Shown: one piece after another, positions 45,001 through 51,000 of the stretch
Numbering within the stretch: position 1 is the first letter of the stretch
Layout: each line of letters opens with the position of its first letter
Made by a program: the position numbers
Source: Nitrososphaerales archaeon
Lineage (GTDB): Archaea; Thermoproteota; Nitrososphaeria; Nitrososphaerales; UBA213
Assembly (NCBI GenBank): GCA_965197925.1
Contig: CBDAOC010000017.1
Span: 64,001 to 128,000, forward strand
Direction of reading: 5' to 3'
DNA length: 64,000 bases

Positions 45001-48000
45001 CTTCTATCTAATTGGGTAATGGTCACTACAGATCCAGTCGATATGAATTATGTTGCATTTGGTCTTGGACTAGCTGCCGTTGGAGTATTTTTAACATACC
45101 GCGAATTTAGGTAATTGAACTATCTTTTTGAGCCCTTATCTAGTCTCAAGAACTGAAATATTAAGACCTTCTCTTTCAATCAAATCAATGTTAGAAAGAA
45201 ACTGATACCTATTCAATATTATGATGCATTGTTACCGTTTTTATTTTTATTATAGCTATTTTTATTATAGCTCGTTAATTTTTAATTCATGCCAAATTCT
45301 AACCTAAGTTTTAGCTCATTGTTATAATTAGGATGTAGGGTTTCTAGCTTTGATATTGCCCAAAACAAGGTTGTTAAAAATGGAGTGTTCAAGTGGGTTG
45401 ATGTATAATGGTCCAAGCATAATGGTCTAAGCACTATCTATCTTGTTCCGTTAATATAATTATACTACTGTCTTAGATTACCTATGAATTGGGGCGGAGA
45501 ACATACATACAACTCATCTCAAAACTAACCATTTAGACAATTTTTAGCGATCATTTAGATCCATGAATAGCGACATCTAAAATTATTTTATGAAATTCCA
45601 AGAATTATCAGACAAACAGTGGAGTATGATGGAATCACACATACCACCACATGCAAAAACTGGCAGGCCTAGGGATTATGATAGAAAAATCATTAACGGA
45701 ATAATCCATGTTCTAACTACTGGATGCCGATGGGACGATATGCCAAAAAGATATGGTGATGATTCTACTGCAAACAGAAGGTTAAACAAATGGCAACAAA
45801 AAGGAATCTGGAAAAAGATTCTATCACGTACTATTCACTCAGCACATAAATCTGGCAAAATTAATCTACAAAAAATATCAGTTGACTCTTCATCCATTCC
45901 TGATAAAAAAGGGGCAATGTAACTGGATATAATGGATTCAAGAGAATAACAGGTACAAAAATACATGCCTCAGTAGAGAGTAACGGATTTCCAATATCCA
46001 TACTGTTGAGTCCAGCAAATGAACATGACAGTACAAAATGCATGGATGTTACAGGATCAATTTCAGACTATCTTGATGATGATTCAATACAACAGATAGA
46101 ATCAGTTTATGCAGACAAAATGATGCAAAATACATCAGAATGTATTTGTGGGATAGAAATATTGCATGTTGCATCCCATACAAAATAAATTCCAAGTTCA
46201 TCTTGCAAAATAATGATTGCAAACATTACAACAAGACAAGATTTGTAGTTGAGAGATTCCTTGCATGGCTCAAGAATGGATTTCACAGAACAAGAACCAG
46301 GTATGAAAGAACGGCAGAAAACTATCTGGCATTTGTTAATCCTGCATCATTTTTGATGTATTGTAGGGTTTTGAGATGAGTTGATAGTATCATGTACATC
46401 ATACTACCTATATATTACAATAAGAATCAACTCGTAATGCATGAGAAGCATGAGAACGTATTAATTTCTATTCTTGACGCTATGGGCGGTCAAGTTAATG
46501 GTAGAACTGTCTTACAGAAATTATCGTATTTTATATCAGTGAAGACAGCCATTGATTTACAACATACCGCTCATTACTATGGACCGTACAGCCGTACTAT
46601 TGCATCCACATTAGAGGATTTGTCTGCAGCAGGTTTTATTAAAGAAGAAGGTTGGATTACTACCAATGATAGGGTTGCGTATAATTATCGTTTAACTCCT
46701 GATGGAGAATCTATTGTCAAGGACATAAAAGTAAATTCATCGGGTTTATATAAAAAAGTCAGTGACATTGTACATACCTGTACGAAAATTACAAGCAATG
46801 ATCCCGGTATTCTGTCATGGGCAGCAAAAGTACATTATATAGCACGTCAAAAGAAGGGAGGTGAGATAACATATCAGGAAATAAAAGATATTGGAGAATC
46901 TCTTGGTTGGTCATTATCTGAAGCTCAGATTGATTCTGCCGGTGACTTGCTGAAAGAGTTAGGGCTTGTCAAAACCTCTTGATGGTAATGCCAATAAAAA
47001 TCCCACAATAATTCGAGATCCTCTCTATGGCTTTGTCGAGCTATCGGCTTTCGAGCGAGACATCGTATCAACTAATGTGGTACAACGTTTATTGAGGATC
47101 AAACAATTAGCGCATGCTTACGTGGCTTATCCCAGTGCAATGCATACTCGTTTTGAACATTCTCTTGGTGCAATGCATGTTAGCGGCAGGATGTGTGGTC
47201 AGCTGGGTATTCCCAAAGAAGCCGAGATTATTAGGCTAGGAGTGTTACTGCATGATATAGGACATGGTCCTTTTTCACATGTTTTCGAACGAATAGTCGG
47301 TGAGGTGACACATGGAGAATATACGCATGAATCCATAGGCAGACTCATTCTAGAAAATGATAAAGAGTTAAAGGACCGTCTCGGTAAAAAACAGAAGGAT
47401 ATAATTCTACTTTATGACGAAAAAGACACCATAGGAAAGGAAATATTATCAGGTAGTTTGGATGCAGATAAGTTAGATTATTTACGGCGTGATACGCATC
47501 ATGTCGGCGCCGCTTACGGCCTTTTCGATTTTGAGCGTGTAATCCGCAATCTACGCGTTATAGACGATGTGACGAGACAATACATTGGAATCGAGGAAAA
47601 AGGAGAGGATGCCTTGGAGAGCTACCGCTTGGCAAGGTATCTTATGCATTCACAAGTTTATGGGCATCATACCAGACTAGTAGCAGATGATATGTTCATA
47701 CGTGCCGTGCAATGTGCCCTGAATGAAGGGGTTCTTGACAAGGATGCCCTTAATCCTAATAATGATGTTGGAAAATTCCTAGAATACTACCTGTCTCTTG
47801 ATGATTACTCAATCCAGCATTTAATTTTGAACAAGTCTGAGGGTAAAGCCAGGCATTTAATTTTTGACATTCAAAAGAGGAAACTGTACAAGAGGGCATA
47901 TACTACAAAATTATCGGCACAAGAAGTTCCCGATGCATTGAAAAGACGAGACTTGTGCTATTTGAATCAACAGAATATTAGTAACCTAGAAAAAAAAATT

Positions 48001-51000
48001 GCCGACAAGGCAGGTGCCGATCCCTCTGATATTTTCGTACACCTGCAAAGCATAGAAATAAAACTTTATGAACGATCTCACATGGAAACACCGGTAAGTG
48101 AATCTATTCTTGTACAACGCGGCGATGGTTCAATTGGAAGCATGGACGAGTCTCCGATATCTGCTGCATTCACCGACATAAGAAGATTATATGTTTTTTG
48201 CCCTTGTGATAGACGAGTGCAGGTTGGTCAGGCTGCTGAAGAAATAATCGGTGTACCAAACAAATACGGCCCCAAGAAGAATTCTCCGTGAATTTTATCA
48301 TCGACTATTGAACCAGCGAAATTTTTGGTTTTTAATTGAGTAGAACTGGTAAAGATAAGTGGTTTGGAGTTGCACAACTCTAGCAATATATACCTAAACT
48401 GACTGACGAGTAAATTCCTTATCTTTAAATGCTGAAGAGCCAAGACTGAAAATGCCTAAACGAATACTGTTTTGCCCGTGATCGCCCATTGAGTACATCA
48501 TATGTAAGAGAACATTCCTTCACTTTTACAACACATAAAAAATTAATCGTTTTCTATTTGGGCGGTAAGATGACAATATTATTAACACTGATCGATGCGC
48601 CGATCCAGTTTGCCGGGAAGTAAATTAGGATCCAATCCAGACGACATTACCCCGTATTATGCCGATAAGAGAATTTCCGAGGTCTAATCCTAAGAGTCAT
48701 AGTCCTACTTTTTTTATACTGCGAATATTTTGAAATCAATAGTTTGTATCTTCAATGAACATGCTATTCGCTCTCTTAATTCAGCACCTACAGATAAATG
48801 ACGTATTTCCTCCTTATTCGTGCTCTATCTGTGTAGCATGACGATGCATTGCTCGACCTGAATCCCCTCATACTGCCTGAATGCAGGCAGGATGATATGC
48901 CATACCGTATGGACATGCTGCCCTTCCCGTGCGTATAGAGCGGTACTCCAGCCCTTGTCAAGGCATCAGGTATTGTTTTTGCAAGTTTGACGTATCTAGA
49001 CTCTTTCATACATAGGCATGCATGGTATGTAACAAATTGATCCAATGTGCAATTCGATATACAATGGGCTAGAATCCATGGTTTCTACAGGGCCCGTCCG
49101 ATTACATCCCTTAACATGTTGATTTCCGTCAAGTTAACACATTACGAAAGTCACTTGCGCAAATGAAGTAGGTTCACAACTGAACCAAACCACTGAAAGT
49201 AACCAAGAGACAAACGAGGTTAGAAAAAAGCCATGGAAACATACTGAGATACCTAGAGAAAAGGCAGGCGAGCCAATGAAAGAGGGCCGGGGAAGGAAGG
49301 AGGACTGGGCTTTAACCACTGCATGGAGCAAAAACAATATTGTAAAAGTCATCTGACATATTGTTACCAATGACCAGTAACATATTGGAAAACGTGCCGG
49401 GTGGCCCTCCGGTAATAGGGAAAACGCGTTTCGTTTCTACTATCCCAAAACTATTAGCCTTTTTCACATCATTTGACTGACTCAATTAACCACCTTCAAC
49501 TTGTAGATTCATAAATTAATAGACTAATTTATAGAATAGAACTAATCCTTATTTTGTAGAAGTATATTATACTACGGAGTACTAACAAACCCTAATGTAT
49601 CTAATGTATATAGATGAATCTGGTAATAAAAATCCTAATGATTCAGAAATTTGGTATGTTTTGGCAGGCGTAATTATATCAGAAATACACTGGAAAGTAG
49701 TTAATGAGAAAGTCGACAATTTCAAGCGTGCTTTGTTTCCCTCTGCGAACATAGACGAATTAGAATTACACATGCATCATATTTTGCAGAAGAGGGGGCT
49801 TTTTTCTAAATTAAATGATGAACGTGTAAAGGAAATCCTGACACAACTTTATCAATTAATTCATAACTTACCTGTAACCATAATTGCTGTGGCAATCAAC
49901 AAACGAGAGTTGGTAATGAACTATCAATATAGAGATCCCTTGACTGATGCATGGACTTTTCTGACTGAGCGGTTTCATAACTTCTTGGATAAGAGTTGTG
50001 ATGAAAATGGTGTTATAGACTATGGTTTATTGATGATCGACCAGCAAACACAATCAAATGATAAGGATATTAGACAGTTGTTACGGTCATTGCAATCTCA
50101 TGGTACTGGGTTCCAACCAATAGACAATGTAATCGAAGATCCGATCTCTGGTTCTTCTCAATTAAAGAATGCCCTTCAGTTAGCCGACGCCGTAGCATAC
50201 TGCGTACTTGAATATGTAAAAAAAGATGCCGAATTCATTTCCTATCTTAATATTATTGAAGATGTGTTTGATAAAGGACCGAATGGTCAGATTTTAAAAT
50301 ATGGTTTGAAGATATTTCCAGAATAGGTTGGCGTGGTAGCCTCACCGTGAGAACCACCGTTCAGCTACCCGTTTCAGCAGCCCTACGACTGCCTACTAAC
50401 AATGGATAGAAACAAAGGTAATATAAAACTATGTTAACCAATTGGTTCTGTTGCGTGTGTCACCTATTTGTTTGTGTTGCGTATCGTCACCTGCTTGTTT
50501 CCGCTAACAAATTTAACAAGCTTTTCAGTCAGAGCCGTCAGTTTGACAAAACTCCTTTGAAAATTCTGCCGTTTGTTTAGTGAGGCGTCATACTTTGGCT
50601 TGTATTTCTCCACGTGTTTTTTTGGTATGTCCTGCATTAGTTTTATCATTTTAGTGTAAAATTCAGCATCTCCTGTAAGTTCTTCCCAGAATAACTGTCC
50701 TGCAACTTCGGTATATCTTCTTGTCATTAGGTGGCGATGTCTTTTTGCCACAAGAGTAAGCTAGAACTGGATCAAATTGCTTGTGCAGTTTTAATAATCT
50801 GCTTCTCAAAGAGCTAAACCCATCATTTTGCCTCTTTTTTGCAGATGAGTTAAAGGGGTTTGGACCAGACTTTACGGCATATGCAGAATACCTGTTATCT
50901 GTCTCAACTGCAACATCTACACCATGATGTTATCCCTACTGAGTTTGGCTGGTCTTGTTCATGGGAGGATTTTTGGTTCAGAAAGACTTGTTGCAGGCAT

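What a model noticed while it worked through the whole genome (the two positions that open the first line are those of the whole stretch)
46392..48291. SAMHD1-like dNTPase paired with a DarG-antitoxin-domain homologue (YwfO-YwgA module), three loci
Three places in this ammonia-oxidising archaeon carry a two-gene module: a ~190-aa protein of no Pfam family whose sequence profile and predicted fold match only the toxin-binding C-terminal domain of the DarG antitoxin, overlapping the start of a ~440-aa SAMHD1-like HD dNTP triphosphohydrolase. I read it as a toxin-antitoxin-style antiviral module in which the small protein holds a dNTP-depleting enzyme in check until infection. If true, it gives a function to the widespread, uncharacterised YwgA/COG3465 family and shows how prokaryotic SAMHD1-like enzymes are kept from starving their own cell of dNTPs.
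Evidence so far: Loci: C17:110392-110982 (g01086, 196 aa)+110966-112291 (g01087, 441 aa; 17-nt overlap); C13:69677-70198 (g00461)+70182-71534 (g00462); C20:40769-42097 (g02480 HD) with a decayed partner at 42090-42416 (1 TGA inside; call 71), next to cas4/cas1-cas2. All lie in islands with Hachiman, DUF3800, RM genes. Small-protein homologues in 25 of 301 Nitrososphaerales genomes, this one included; in 16 of 19 fetched loci of other genomes an HD gene follows directly on the same strand, in 2 it lies upstream, in 1 none is seen. Profile of 18 small proteins vs PDB: only hit under E 0.1 is 7yk3_B, DarG C-terminal domain of the M. tuberculosis DarTG complex, E 5.7e-7; AlphaFold model pLDDT 90.6; Foldseek best [...]
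(Added by a program. Inside this text positions count along the whole contig: contig position 64,001 is position 1 of the stretch shown here. "Call 12" and the like, gene names such as g00115 and contig names such as C1 are that model's own, and its searches are not shown. The text may have been shortened before it was handed on; [...] marks where a part breaks off. The agent that wrote the report below was given it as the finding of a first reader that could run no searches.)

Follow-up and report, generated by a model that had tools for sequence, protein, structure and literature searches.

The report
DarG-like partner gene beside SAMHD1-like enzyme
A small protein shaped like the toxin-holding half of a known antitoxin is encoded in one operon with a SAMHD1-like nucleotide-destroying enzyme, a pairing kept across archaea and bacteria that probably keeps the enzyme in check and, in this archaeon, sits among antiviral genes.

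Summary
Window 46392-46982 (likely true start 46437) encodes a YwgA/COG3465 protein with no Pfam family. Its AlphaFold model (pLDDT 93) matches, over its full length, only the DarT-binding C-terminal domain of DarG (Foldseek E 1.4e-6; VIA Z 16.1). It overlaps by 17 nt a 441-aa HD + HD_assoc_2 enzyme of the SAMHD1/EF1143 type with an intact catalytic motif.

An HD gene lies next to the small gene on the same strand in 72 of 80 loci from other genomes, in either order, usually with overlapping or nearly touching reading frames. In the window's order the small gene is patchy (41 of 301 genomes), whereas an HD gene is nearly universal (277 of 301). On a tree, partnered HDs separate from the tmk-linked, vertically inherited HD, and the window's copy groups with Bathyarchaeia. 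All three loci in this genome lie in mobile or defence islands.

Most likely the small protein binds the dNTPase and gates it. That it inhibits, and that the module is antiviral, are inferences. Points against: the complex prediction gave only weak support; one locus keeps an intact HD beside a truncated partner; 13 of 17 bacterial pairs sampled had no defence-type neighbour. I found no paper on the pair. It is a new variant of a known kind.

The parts
46392..46982 (+). Longest ORF of the small YwgA/COG3465-type protein (196 aa, P0001)
   Evidence: 107 homologues, several named 'uncharacterized protein YwgA' or COG3465 by their sources. Model and fold matches.
46437..46982 (+). Likely true coding sequence of the small protein (start at the in-frame ATG, residue 16; 181 aa)
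   Evidence: Homologues align only from about residue 17-22 of P0001 and are 154-202 aa long. The first 10 residues have pLDDT 53. ATG read at 46437-46439. The start is inferred, not mapped.
46408..46417 (+). A+T-rich TATA-like box about 25 nt before ATG 46437 (possible archaeal promoter of a short-leader transcript)
   Evidence: Read directly. The spacing rule for archaeal promoters is recalled knowledge. No transcript start was mapped.
46385..46406 (.). 22-bp palindrome (two 11-nt arms, 10 of 11 complementary, no spacer) abutting the TATA-like box. Either a candidate operator or a by-product of the IS junction.
   Evidence: 5 of 100 shuffles scored as high. DNA contigs of run X1 break at 46384-46388, which is the end of a multi-copy IS.
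46966..48291 (+). SAMHD1/EF1143-type HD phosphohydrolase (441 aa, P0002), TTG start overlapping the small gene by 17 nt
   Evidence: H65, H96-D97, D166/D168, H105 and H121 are invariant in 38 partnered HDs. There is no other in-frame ATG/GTG/TTG before the conserved IRDPxYGF motif.
45590..46379 (+). Broken IS4/IS5-type transposase directly upstream (context, not part of the module)
   Evidence: DUF4096 5e-26 at 45590-45922; DDE_Tnp_1 fragment at 46140-46379. DNA depth is 1700-7600 here against 30.8 over the operon.
49595..50326 (+). DUF3800 gene 1.3 kb downstream (island context)
   Evidence: Pfam DUF3800 1e-15.
40171..42165 (.). Divergent gene pair matching PADLOC candidate systems PDC-M41B/M30B and PDC-M30A (island context)
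   Evidence: PADLOC 9.7e-106 and 3.3e-53. DUF5131 9e-90.

Best explanation
Window 46437-48291 is a two-gene operon. The first product is a stand-alone homologue of the DarT-binding C-terminal domain of the DarG antitoxin (YwgA/COG3465 family). The second is a catalytically intact SAMHD1/EF1143-type HD enzyme, presumably a dNTP triphosphohydrolase.

I propose that the two proteins are made together through translational coupling. The small protein would bind the enzyme directly as a regulatory subunit and hold its nucleotide-destroying activity down in uninfected cells. When that restraint is lost or overridden during infection, dNTPs are depleted and viral DNA synthesis stalls.

In this archaeon the module is an accessory, laterally acquired element. 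It is separate from the housekeeping tmk-linked HD paralogue and is kept in defence or mobile islands.

Shown: the gene anatomy, the fold match, the conserved linkage, the accessory and mobile character, and the island context.

Inferred: the binding (weak computational support only), the direction of regulation (by analogy with DarG's C-terminal domain and with CloB of the Clover system), the dNTPase activity (by homology), and the antiviral role (by context).
For: 1. Fold. The model (pLDDT 93.4, pTM 0.88) matches DarG's C-terminal domain over its full length and no other solved chain does so: Foldseek E 1.4e-6, next hit 1.1e-2; VIA Z 16.1, rmsd 3.6 over 168 residues, next Z 11.3 over 94 residues. 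According to passages of PMC13621843, that domain binds and inhibits DarT. The divergent C13 paralogue gives the same top hit.

2. Linkage. An HD homologue lies adjacent on the same strand in 72 of 80 loci from archaea and many bacterial phyla: 32 as small>HD and 40 as HD>small. Gaps are mostly -20 to +45 nt and many are 4-nt overlaps. Of the 8 loci without one, 3 lack upstream flank, 1 (L088) has HD fragments, and 4 show none. In the window's order, 23 of 29 loci have an adjacent HD.

3. Accessory against core. The small gene is in 41 of 301 genomes of the order. An HD gene is in 277 of 301, and in 201 of 206 high-quality genomes.

4. Tree. 14 tmk-linked orphans plus this genome's C20:440k copy form one clade (SH-aLRT 99) that follows taxonomy. 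All 36 small>HD enzymes plus the C17 and C20:40k copies form another clade (99). The window's enzyme is sister to two Bathyarchaeia loci (98).

5. Catalytic residues are invariant in 38 partnered HDs.

6. Context. C17 carries IS fragments, PDC-M30/M41, DUF3800, an EcoO109I fragment and SLATT. C13 carries IS elements and Hachiman HamA/HamB. In C20 the HD is followed by cas4 and cas1-cas2 on the same strand, with Vsr and a C5 methylase nearby. Defence-type neighbours occur in 7 of 10 archaeal small>HD loci sampled.

7. Turnover. This genome has two HD pseudogenes and split partner fragments.

8. Against DNA binding. The recognition-helix position is on average acidic (-1.3), and the C13 paralogue's model has no beta wing.

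9. Precedent. In Clover, the dGTPase CloA is toxic alone and its operon partner restrains it (PMC12265719, abstract and passages).

10. Complex prediction, verdict 'weak support'. Score 0.46 (runs 0.46, 0.54, 0.46); best of 3 controls 0.00. The mark was reached by 116 of 157 solved complexes and by 2 of 215 mismatched pairs. At 0.60 or under, only 18 of those 157 solved complexes passed, as did both of the mismatches. The runs agree in at least 59% of contacts and the partner's pLDDT is at least 77. My own alignments were used, so these counts hold only roughly.

11. RNA-library contigs cover the gene junction: X11 46792-47115, X12 46964-47155, X13 47067-47224. All three runs come from one study, depth is low, and DNA carry-over is not excluded.
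Against: - No experiment exists for any member of the family.
- The complex score is in the band where passes are, by the tool's own calibration, more often wrong than right unless the prior is high.
- C20 keeps an intact 442-aa HD beside a partner reduced to its C-terminal half with an in-frame TGA. G253 likewise has a TGA in the small gene beside an open HD frame. A strictly toxic enzyme should not outlive its inhibitor, unless the C17 copy (about 38-41% identical) covers for it or the enzyme limits itself.
- L149 is a partner-type HD with no detectable small gene in the ~1 kb upstream, the only flank fetched.
- 13 of 17 bacterial HD>small loci sampled have no defence-type neighbour.
- Five genomes of the window's family carry a distant family member with no HD neighbour; 4 of them lie next to tatC.
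- The N-terminal half is a winged helix like PadR/MarR regulators (Z 10-11), and a 22-bp palindrome abuts the putative TATA box.
- No fused small-HD protein was found (weak evidence).
- dNTPase activity is inferred from homology only. Matches to curated dGTPase models are far below their cut-offs.
Confidence: 0.5

Rival explanations
1. The pair is a housekeeping nucleotide-pool or nucleotide-sanitising enzyme with a regulatory or specificity subunit. It has no dedicated antiviral role, and the island context in this genome is incidental to its mobility.
For: 13 of 17 bacterial HD>small loci sampled lie among metabolic or housekeeping genes such as ClpB, NAD synthase, homoserine dehydrogenase and folP-like genes. 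YwfO-type enzymes are discussed as core genes of Firmicutes and of a minimal Mycoplasma genome (passages of PMC4993169 and PMC3814617). Only 2 pairs were found in 2.9 million viral contigs.
Against: In the window's order the housekeeping niche is already filled by the tmk-linked HD, present in 201 of 206 high-quality genomes. The partnered copies are patchy, multi-copy, decaying and laterally moved. All 3 loci here, and 7 of 10 archaeal loci sampled, have defence-type neighbours.
Confidence: 0.2
2. The small protein is a winged-helix transcription regulator (autorepressor) of the HD operon and does not touch the enzyme.
For: The N-terminal ~110 residues superpose on PadR/MarR/VanR regulators (VIA Z 10-11.3, Foldseek E 0.01-0.1). 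There are weak NCBIfam hits to MarR_EPS and PadR (E 0.003-0.08). A 22-bp palindrome lies directly before the TATA-like box (5 of 100 shuffles as good).
Against: The recognition-helix position is net acidic across the family. No family member reaches any wHTH Pfam family convincingly. Only 4 of 34 upstream regions have a palindrome reached by 5 or fewer of 100 shuffles. The window's palindrome sits on an IS junction. In 40 of 72 loci the small gene is the second gene, often with a 4-nt overlap. The full-length fold is DarG-CTD, not a regulator. The C13 paralogue's model lacks the wing and gives no regulator hits. A type II antitoxin can both bind its toxin and repress its operon, so this rival is not fully exclusive of the best explanation.
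Confidence: 0.12
3. The small protein is a positive partner. It is a sensor or adaptor that recognises a viral molecule (for example nucleic acid through its winged helix) and switches the HD enzyme on, or recruits it to a substrate. The enzyme alone is inactive.
For: This explains why an intact HD can persist beside a truncated partner without harm and why partner-type HDs can stand alone (L149). It fits the same linkage, coupling and context data as the best explanation.
Against: The only characterised relative of the fold is an inhibitor of its partner (passages of PMC13621843). The known two-gene dNTPase system uses its partner to restrain the enzyme, not to activate it (PMC12265719). The winged helix is acidic at the usual nucleic-acid-contacting helix.
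Confidence: 0.13
4. The HD protein is not a dNTPase. It acts on another substrate, such as nucleic acid or signalling nucleotides, and the small protein is its specific partner for that reaction.
For: The closest solved relatives (2hek, 2q14) have no assigned activity in their entry names. Curated dGTPase models are matched only around the HD motif. The C20 copy lies in line with cas4 and cas1-cas2.
Against: The HD + HD_assoc_2 architecture and clear similarity to EF1143 (1.6e-27) and SAMHD1 (about 1e-23), both dNTP triphosphohydrolases by their entry names. The residues invariant in the family correspond, by my recollection of SAMHD1 and not by a test here, to its metal- and substrate-binding residues.
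Confidence: 0.05

Closest known systems
C-terminal domain of the DarG antitoxin (DarTG system; PDB 7YK3)
   Same: Same fold over the whole ~170-190 residues (Foldseek E 1.4e-6; VIA Z 16.1). Shared sequence motif around QKxxYF...YGPYS. In DarG this domain binds and inhibits the partner enzyme (PMC13621843 passages; the primary paper, Deep et al. 2023, was seen only as a title in a reference list).
   Different: Here the domain stands alone, with no macrodomain and therefore no ADP-ribosyl glycohydrolase function. The neighbour is an HD phosphohydrolase, not DarT. No DarT was found in this genome, although that search's control rang nowhere. Sequence identity is only 19%.
Clover (CloA dGTPase + CloB nucleotidyltransferase) anti-phage system
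   Same: A two-gene operon in which an HD-type dNTPase effector, toxic on its own, is restrained by the product of the neighbouring gene (PMC12265719, abstract and passages).
   Different: CloA is a Dgt-type octameric dGTPase, not the SAMHD1/EF1143 + HD_assoc_2 type. CloB restrains it through a small nucleotide signal (p3diT), not, as proposed here, by protein-protein binding. The small protein here has no nucleotidyltransferase features.
SAMHD1 (eukaryotes) and EF1143 (Enterococcus faecalis) dNTP triphosphohydrolases
   Same: The HD protein shares the HD domain and the following helical region (HD_assoc_2) and matches these chains at 1e-23 to 1.6e-27. The catalytic motif is intact.
   Different: No SAM domain. 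Allosteric sites and oligomeric state were not examined. No dedicated protein partner is known to me for SAMHD1 or EF1143 (recalled).
Stand-alone dGTPase defence genes (PADLOC 'dGTPase')
   Same: An HD enzyme presumed to deplete a dNTP, found in defence contexts.
   Different: Only a weak, local match to the PADLOC model (1.1e-6, residues 58-115). NCBIfam dGTPase equivalogs score 17-27 bits against cut-offs of 152-511. This is a different branch of HD enzymes. Those systems are single genes. The 2026 survey of dGTPase homologues does not use the words operon, neighbor or antitoxin in its main text (PMC13519002).
Panacea / DUF4065 (PanA) antitoxin domain
   Same: A small, promiscuous antitoxin domain that neutralises partners by direct binding (PMC8832971 passages). 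One paper states that DUF4065 proteins are homologous to DarG's C-terminal domain (PMC13621843). One ESM Atlas neighbour cluster (score 0.89, rank 25) has PF13274 on 13% of its members.
   Different: No Pfam PF13274 hit in 0 of 42 family members, even at E 10. A profile-profile comparison with 10 true Panacea proteins of the same class gave probability 3%. The Panacea paper's main text names no HD or phosphohydrolase partner; its Dataset S1 was not read.

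Membership tests
YwgA / COG3465 family | Stand-alone protein of ~170-200 aa that sources name YwgA/COG3465, with conserved motifs | tested here: met
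   107 homologues of 154-232 aa. Nine are named 'uncharacterized protein YwgA' by JGI and one is 'Nmar_1211 COG3465'. Invariant G37 R38 K43 Y46 H61 G64 P65 S142 A144 K146 W173. 2914 cluster representatives at E<=1e-3; the top 150 are all 154-202 aa.
YwgA / COG3465 family | Adjacent to a YwfO-type HD gene | tested here: met
   72 of 80 loci and 23 of 29 loci in the order. That ywfO and ywgA are neighbours in B. subtilis is recalled, not tested.
DarG antitoxin (DarTG) | N-terminal macrodomain (ADP-ribosyl glycohydrolase) | tested here: not met
   No Pfam family in P0001. The NCBIfam and PADLOC DarG matches cover only profile positions 172-314 and 163-327. Macro domains in this genome lie elsewhere.
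DarG antitoxin (DarTG) | C-terminal toxin-binding domain fold | tested here: met
   Foldseek 7yk3_B E 1.4e-6, TM 0.58/0.60. VIA Z 16.1 over 168 residues.
DarG antitoxin (DarTG) | Neighbouring DarT ADP-ribosyltransferase | tested here: inconclusive
   The neighbour is an HD enzyme. PF14487 found nothing in this genome, but the control genomes gave nothing either.
Panacea / DUF4065 antitoxin (PanA) | Match to Pfam PF13274 or to a profile of its members | tested here: not met
   0 of 42 members at E<=10. hhalign against 10 Panacea proteins: probability 3%, E 0.014 over 51 columns. A remote relationship through DarG's C-terminal domain, as claimed in PMC13621843, is not excluded.
SAMHD1/EF1143-type dNTP triphosphohydrolase | HD domain followed by the HD-associated helical region | tested here: met
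   PF01966 5.9e-15 and PF19276 1.8e-25, both above their cut-offs. PDB matches.
SAMHD1/EF1143-type dNTP triphosphohydrolase | Intact H...HD...D metal-binding motif | tested here: met
   H65, H96, D97, D166 and D168 are invariant in 38 partnered enzymes.
SAMHD1/EF1143-type dNTP triphosphohydrolase | dNTP triphosphohydrolase activity, nucleotide-dependent tetramer | not testable with these tools
   Needs enzyme assays and structures. Allosteric-site residues were not examined.
Dgt-type dGTPase (defence dGTPase, Clover CloA) | Full-length match to curated dGTPase models | tested here: not met
   Best NCBIfam dGTPase equivalog scores 26.8 bits against a cut-off of 385. The PADLOC dGTPase match covers residues 58-115 only.
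Type II toxin-antitoxin pair | Toxin harmful when expressed alone and neutralised by direct binding of the antitoxin | not testable with these tools
   Only a weak-support complex prediction. An intact HD beside a truncated partner in C20 argues against strict dependence.
PadR/MarR winged-helix transcription regulators | Family-level sequence match and a basic recognition helix | tested here: not met
   No PadR or MarR Pfam hit in 42 members. NCBIfam PadR and MarR_EPS hits at E 0.003-0.08, far below their cut-offs. The recognition-helix position has mean charge -1.3. The fold of the N-terminal half is similar.

The most novel reading that the evidence does not exclude
YwgA/COG3465 proteins would be a general protein 'safety catch' for mobile SAMHD1-type dNTPases. 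Each would be a stand-alone version of the DarG toxin-binding domain that acts as a nucleic-acid mimic. It would sit on the enzyme's nucleic-acid/allosteric interface, prevent assembly of the active oligomer, and be displaced or destroyed on infection. DarG itself would then be a fusion of this ancient enzyme-inhibitor module with a macrodomain. This would give archaea a SAMHD1-like antiviral arm with its own built-in inhibitor.
Probability: 0.17. Interest if true: 0.85.

Novelty: new variant of a known kind. Interest (0 to 1): 0.62.

Why it matters
If the small protein gates the enzyme, three things follow.

1. An uncharacterised family gets a function. The family has about 2900 cluster representatives and spans archaea and many bacterial phyla.
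2. Prokaryotic SAMHD1-type enzymes, like the Dgt-type enzyme of Clover, would be shown to need a dedicated brake. Here the brake would be a protein rather than a nucleotide signal.
3. The toxin-binding domain of DarG would be linked to a second, unrelated class of partner enzymes.

It would also be one of few defence-type modules proposed for ammonia-oxidising archaea. The idea is cheap to test, by co-expression, a toxicity assay and a dNTPase assay.

The contrast between the archaeal (island) and bacterial (mostly housekeeping) contexts suggests that one regulated enzyme pair has been used for both pool control and defence.

Tried and rejected
- Panacea link: hhalign of the family profile against 10 Panacea proteins of the same class gave probability 3%. 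No relationship is shown by this test.
- Fused forms: no homologue of 344-2000 aa was found. The tool calls this weak evidence. The top 150 profile hits are all stand-alone.
- Viral copies: only 2 loci in IMG/VR, both full HD>small pairs. The best BFVD fold hit is an SSV4 protein at E 2.8e-4, TM 0.48/0.58. This is too weak to call a viral orphan partner.
- Operator search: the best palindrome upstream of 34 small>HD operons was reached by 5 or fewer of 100 shuffles in 4 cases (window, L015, L026, L045) and in 7 of 100 in one more (L030). There is no consistent operator.
- DarT: not found in this genome, but the control rang nowhere, so this says nothing.
- Counting which partner decays first: I saw more loci with a broken HD beside an intact small gene (L036, L070, L088, L104, L116-L118, G303) than the reverse (C20, G253). 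I rejected this as evidence, because the loci were found through the small protein and the HD gene is 2.4 times longer.
- Literature: 'ywgA'/'ywfO' gave 15 papers, none on function beyond speculation. 'COG3465' gave 0 papers. Searches for DarG + dNTPase, for SAMHD1 + anti-phage, and for dNTPase + operon + toxicity gave no paper on this pair. Subscription journals and supplementary tables were not searched.
- RNA contigs: parts of the operon without RNA cover are not evidence of silence.

Full report
WHAT IS THERE

The window holds two overlapping ORFs on the + strand: 46392-46982 (196 aa) and 46966-48291 (441 aa, TTG start, 17-nt overlap). Homologues of the small protein align only from about residue 17-22 and are 154-202 aa long. 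The first ten residues of the model are poorly predicted. The real start is therefore probably the in-frame ATG at 46437. An A+T-rich TATA-like box lies about 25 nt before it, at 46408-46417. The promoter spacing rule is recalled knowledge.

A broken IS4/IS5-type transposase ends 12 nt before the long ORF. In DNA run X1 the stretch 46000-46434 has depth 1700-7600 against 30.8 over the operon, and contigs break at 46384-46388. So a multi-copy IS ends about 50 nt before the likely start.

THE SMALL PROTEIN

It has no Pfam family, and none of 42 family members hits a relevant family even at E 10.

Sequence matches are weak and confined to the C-terminal part of DarG:
- NCBIfam antitoxin_DarG 2.7e-7, 30 bits against a cut-off of 250.
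- PADLOC DarG 6.7e-11.
- My 42-sequence profile against PDB gave 7yk3_B at E 0.001, over the motif QKxxYF...YGPYS, with nothing else under 0.5.

With that alignment AlphaFold gives a confident model (pLDDT 93.4, pTM 0.88). Foldseek puts the two DarG C-terminal-domain chains of 7YK3 first (E 1.4e-6 and 3.8e-6, TM 0.58-0.61 over about 190 columns) and then PadR-type regulators at E 0.011 or worse. An independent all-against-representatives alignment gives Z 16.1 (168 residues, rmsd 3.6) for 7yk3_D. The next best is Z 11.3 or less, and those matches cover only the N-terminal ~90-residue winged helix.

The N-terminal half taken alone is a generic winged helix.

Sources name several homologues 'uncharacterized protein YwgA', and one 'COG3465'. 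The family has 2914 representatives at E<=1e-3 among 1.84 billion, and the top 150 are all stand-alone.

THE HD PROTEIN

It has HD (5.9e-15) plus HD_assoc_2 (1.8e-25). The closest solved chains are 2hek (1e-43), 2q14 (1e-39), EF1143 (1.6e-27), a fungal SAMHD1 (9mr6) and the animal SAMHD1s (about 1e-23). In 38 partnered enzymes H65, H96-D97, D166/D168, H105, H121 and others are invariant. The enzyme looks active, but its dNTPase activity is inferred from homology.

Matches to curated Dgt-type dGTPase models are local and far below their cut-offs. It is not that branch of HD enzymes.

LINKAGE

A pattern scan of one genome per species found 219 relatives of the small protein, and the best 80 loci were kept.
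- In 72 of 80 an HD homologue lies beside it on the same strand.
- 32 are small>HD. These are mostly Methanomicrobia, Methanoperedens, Bathyarchaeia and Nitrososphaeria.
- 40 are HD>small. These are Acidobacteriota, Poribacteria, Planctomycetota, Armatimonadota, Bacillota and others.
- Gaps are mostly -20 to +45 nt and often 4-nt overlaps.
- Of the 8 loci without an HD, 3 have no upstream flank (L041, L052, L091), L088 has HD_assoc_2 fragments, and L053, L057, L074 and L089 show none.
- In L036 the HD is split by an IS66 transposase.

Keeping the pair in both gene orders across two domains of life is strong evidence of a functional unit.

CORE AGAINST ACCESSORY IN THE WINDOW'S ORDER

The small-protein profile hits 41 of 301 genomes (34 of 206 high-quality ones), and several genomes have 2-6 copies. 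The HD profile hits 277 of 301 genomes (201 of 206 high-quality ones). That tally includes the unpublished genomes G240, G343 and G132, and no other claim rests on them.

The common HD scores about 310-330 bits and lies between a 195-aa gene and a 225-aa gene in 14 sampled genomes. In this genome the upstream one is thymidylate kinase. The high-scoring HDs (380 bits or more) are the ones that lie next to the small-gene matches.

Of 29 loci in the order, 16 have an HD just downstream, 7 just upstream, and 6 none.

A maximum-likelihood tree of 99 HD proteins (quick mode, SH-aLRT support) shows:
- The tmk-linked orphans, with this genome's C20:440k copy, form one clade (99) whose branching follows the taxonomic families.
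- All 36 small>HD enzymes, with the C17 and C20:40k copies, form another clade (99).
- The window's enzyme is sister to two Bathyarchaeia loci (98), not to other members of its order. A Planctomycetia locus is also inside this clade.
- The bacterial HD>small enzymes form the third group.
- The C13 copy sits on a very long branch (2.08), so its place is unsure.

The partnered enzymes are thus a separate, laterally moving lineage.

THIS GENOME

Intact pairs:
- The C17 pair, which is the finding.
- A C13 pair. Its small protein P0109 is only 23% identical to P0001 (BLASTP E 0.017). It keeps R..QK..YF, GPYS and the AAK/HY helix, hits PADLOC DarG at 2.2e-7, and gives a model (pLDDT 89) whose two top Foldseek hits are again 7yk3 (E 1.9e-3 and 3.6e-3, next hit E 1 or worse). 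The alignment used for that model included YwgA-type sequences, so the test is not fully independent.

Partial or broken copies:
- On C20, an intact 442-aa HD is followed on the same strand by cas4 and a cas1-cas2 fusion. It is preceded only by the C-terminal half of the small gene (residues 90-196, one TGA).
- The matching N-terminal half (residues 21-83) lies 4.5 kb away, on the far side of the block.
- Two HD pseudogenes lie at C20:95-1267 and C15:73456-74625.

Context of the three loci:
- C17: IS fragments, a PDC-M30/M41 candidate pair, DUF3800, an EcoO109I fragment, SLATT/DUF4231 and a Fic fragment.
- C13: IS elements, with Hachiman HamA and a split HamB 2.6 kb downstream.
- C20: the cas genes, a nucleoside 2-deoxyribosyltransferase, DUF4145, and Vsr with a C5 methylase.

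CONTEXT ELSEWHERE

I scanned 118 neighbours of 27 loci. I chose 30 of the 46 loci with full flanks and left out 3 near-duplicates (L022, L033, L064). Families that I regard from recalled knowledge as defence-type occur as follows:
- 7 of 10 archaeal small>HD loci. Examples are McrBC, a type I RM S subunit with Hypoth_Ymh and DUF4062, a reverse transcriptase with Fic, Schlafen-AlbA_2 ATPases, an AAA_15/AAA_21 ATPase, and DUF499/DUF1156.
- 4 of 17 bacterial HD>small loci: SIR2_2, TPR-CHAT, helicase-NOV_C with DUF1156, and Eco57I with TIR.

The other 13 bacterial loci lie among ordinary metabolic genes. There is no baseline for these counts.

DOES THE SMALL PROTEIN BIND DNA OR THE ENZYME?

- Across the family the helix at the recognition position carries a mean charge of -1.3, and the family's median pI is 6.0.
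- The C13 paralogue's model has no beta wing.
- A 22-bp palindrome (46385-46406) abuts the TATA-like box, but it lies on the IS junction. Only 4 of 34 operons have an upstream palindrome reached by 5 or fewer of 100 shuffles.
- The complex prediction, with alignments for both chains, gave 'weak support'. The score was 0.46 (runs 0.46, 0.54, 0.46) and the best of 3 controls was 0.00. The mark was reached by 116 of 157 solved complexes and by 2 of 215 mismatched pairs. At 0.60 or under, only 18 of the 157 solved complexes passed, as did both mismatches. The runs agree in at least 59% of contacts and the partner's pLDDT is at least 77. My own alignments were used, so the calibration holds only roughly.
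- No fused small-HD protein was found (weak evidence).

EXPRESSION

Three metatranscriptome runs of one study hold short contigs at 95-100% identity over the gene junction: X11 46792-47115, X12 46964-47155 and X13 47067-47224. The X11 contig has more than 100 nt on each side of the junction. This is a hint of co-transcription. Depth is low, however, and DNA in the libraries is not excluded.

MECHANISM

The most economical reading is a regulated enzyme pair. The small protein would be made with the HD enzyme through translational coupling, bind it, and gate its dNTP hydrolysis.

I favour 'brake' over 'switch-on' for two reasons.
- The only characterised relative of the fold inhibits its partner by direct binding (PMC13621843 passages, citing Deep et al. 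2023; I saw that paper only as a title).
- The one characterised two-gene dNTPase system, Clover, uses its second gene to suppress an otherwise toxic enzyme (PMC12265719).

The intact HD beside a truncated partner on C20, and a partner-type HD with no detectable partner in the ~1 kb of upstream flank fetched (L149), speak against strict toxin-antitoxin dependence. They keep the activator rival alive.

The antiviral role rests on context, on patchiness and on analogy with SAMHD1. It is plausible for the archaeal clade and doubtful as a general statement for the bacterial pairs.

COMPARISON WITH WHAT IS KNOWN

- It is not a DarTG system: there is no macrodomain and the partner is different.
- It is not a detectable Panacea member: 0 of 42 Pfam hits and hhalign probability 3%. 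A remote link is claimed in print for DUF4065 and DarG's C-terminal domain.
- It is not a Dgt-type dGTPase system or Clover.
- It works, on my reading, like a type II TA-style or Clover-style restrained effector.

My searches found no paper on this pair. The Panacea survey's main text names no HD partner, but its supplementary dataset was not read and could list one. Closed-access literature was not searched.

VERDICT

It is a new variant of a known kind. Interest 0.62.

Noticed in passing
Own genome C20:37400-42398 (L151:7400-12398), outside the window: The YwgA-like gene is present as two complementary halves on the minus strand, in permuted order. The C-half (residues 90-196, one TGA) lies directly upstream of HD-cas4-cas1/cas2. 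The N-half (residues 21-83) lies downstream of that block. This looks like the linearised form of a circle or the remnant of a tandem duplication.
   Followed up: partly
L125, L126, L130, L131, L132 (genomes of the window's own family): A distant YwgA-like gene (186-199 aa, E 1e-11 to 1e-16 to the family profile) has no HD neighbour. In 4 of the 5 it lies directly next to tatC. This is a conserved, apparently core paralogue of unknown role.
   Followed up: partly
window 45590-46434: The broken IS4/IS5-type element directly upstream is highly multi-copy in DNA run X1 (depth 1700-7600 against 30.8), with contig breaks at 46384-46388. It ends about 50 nt before the operon's likely start and may have replaced the native upstream region.
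   Followed up: partly
window 40171-40929 (-) and 41071-42165 (+): A divergent gene pair strongly matches PADLOC candidate defence systems PDC-M41B/M30B (9.7e-106; Pfam DUF5131) and PDC-M30A (3.3e-53).
   Followed up: no
window 52334-52789 (-) and 54429-55214 (+): A SLATT_1/DUF4231 two-transmembrane effector-like gene. Also an ORF that joins a Fic fragment to an IS4/5 DUF4096 transposase part, which looks like a gene broken by an IS.
   Followed up: no
L031 (same in L033, L034) and L055: The small+HD pair lies between a DUF499 gene and a DUF1156 gene in Methanoperedens loci. In a bacterial locus it lies next to a helicase-NOV_C gene and a DUF1156 gene, as if inserted into or travelling with that predicted defence system.
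   Followed up: no
L033 against L031/L034: A locus labelled Ignavibacteria has an HD protein identical to Methanoperedens copies (branch length 0). This is probably a binning error in the public record rather than a recent transfer.
   Followed up: no
Own genome C20:95-1267 and C15:73456-74625: Two further copies of the partner-type HD gene are pseudogenes, with 3 in-frame stops and 4 fragments respectively. No recognisable small gene lies beside the C20 one.
   Followed up: partly
Own genome C20:38115-38579 (L151:8115-8579) and L062:6013-6480: A nucleoside 2-deoxyribosyltransferase gene lies within a few kb of the pair in this genome. In a Poribacteria locus it lies there beside a TIR gene. 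This may be a recurring neighbour.
   Followed up: no
BFVD entry A8TKI0 (Sulfolobus spindle-shaped virus 4): The best viral fold match of the small protein is an uncharacterised 159-aa SSV4 protein (Foldseek E 2.8e-4, TM 0.48/0.58). This is too weak to call, but an archaeal-virus copy of the fold would be worth a look.
   Followed up: no
L089:772-3168: In Syntrophomonas wolfei the small gene has no recognisable HD gene. It lies downstream of a TIR-NACHT-TPR gene, with a 100-aa ORF of no family between them.
   Followed up: no
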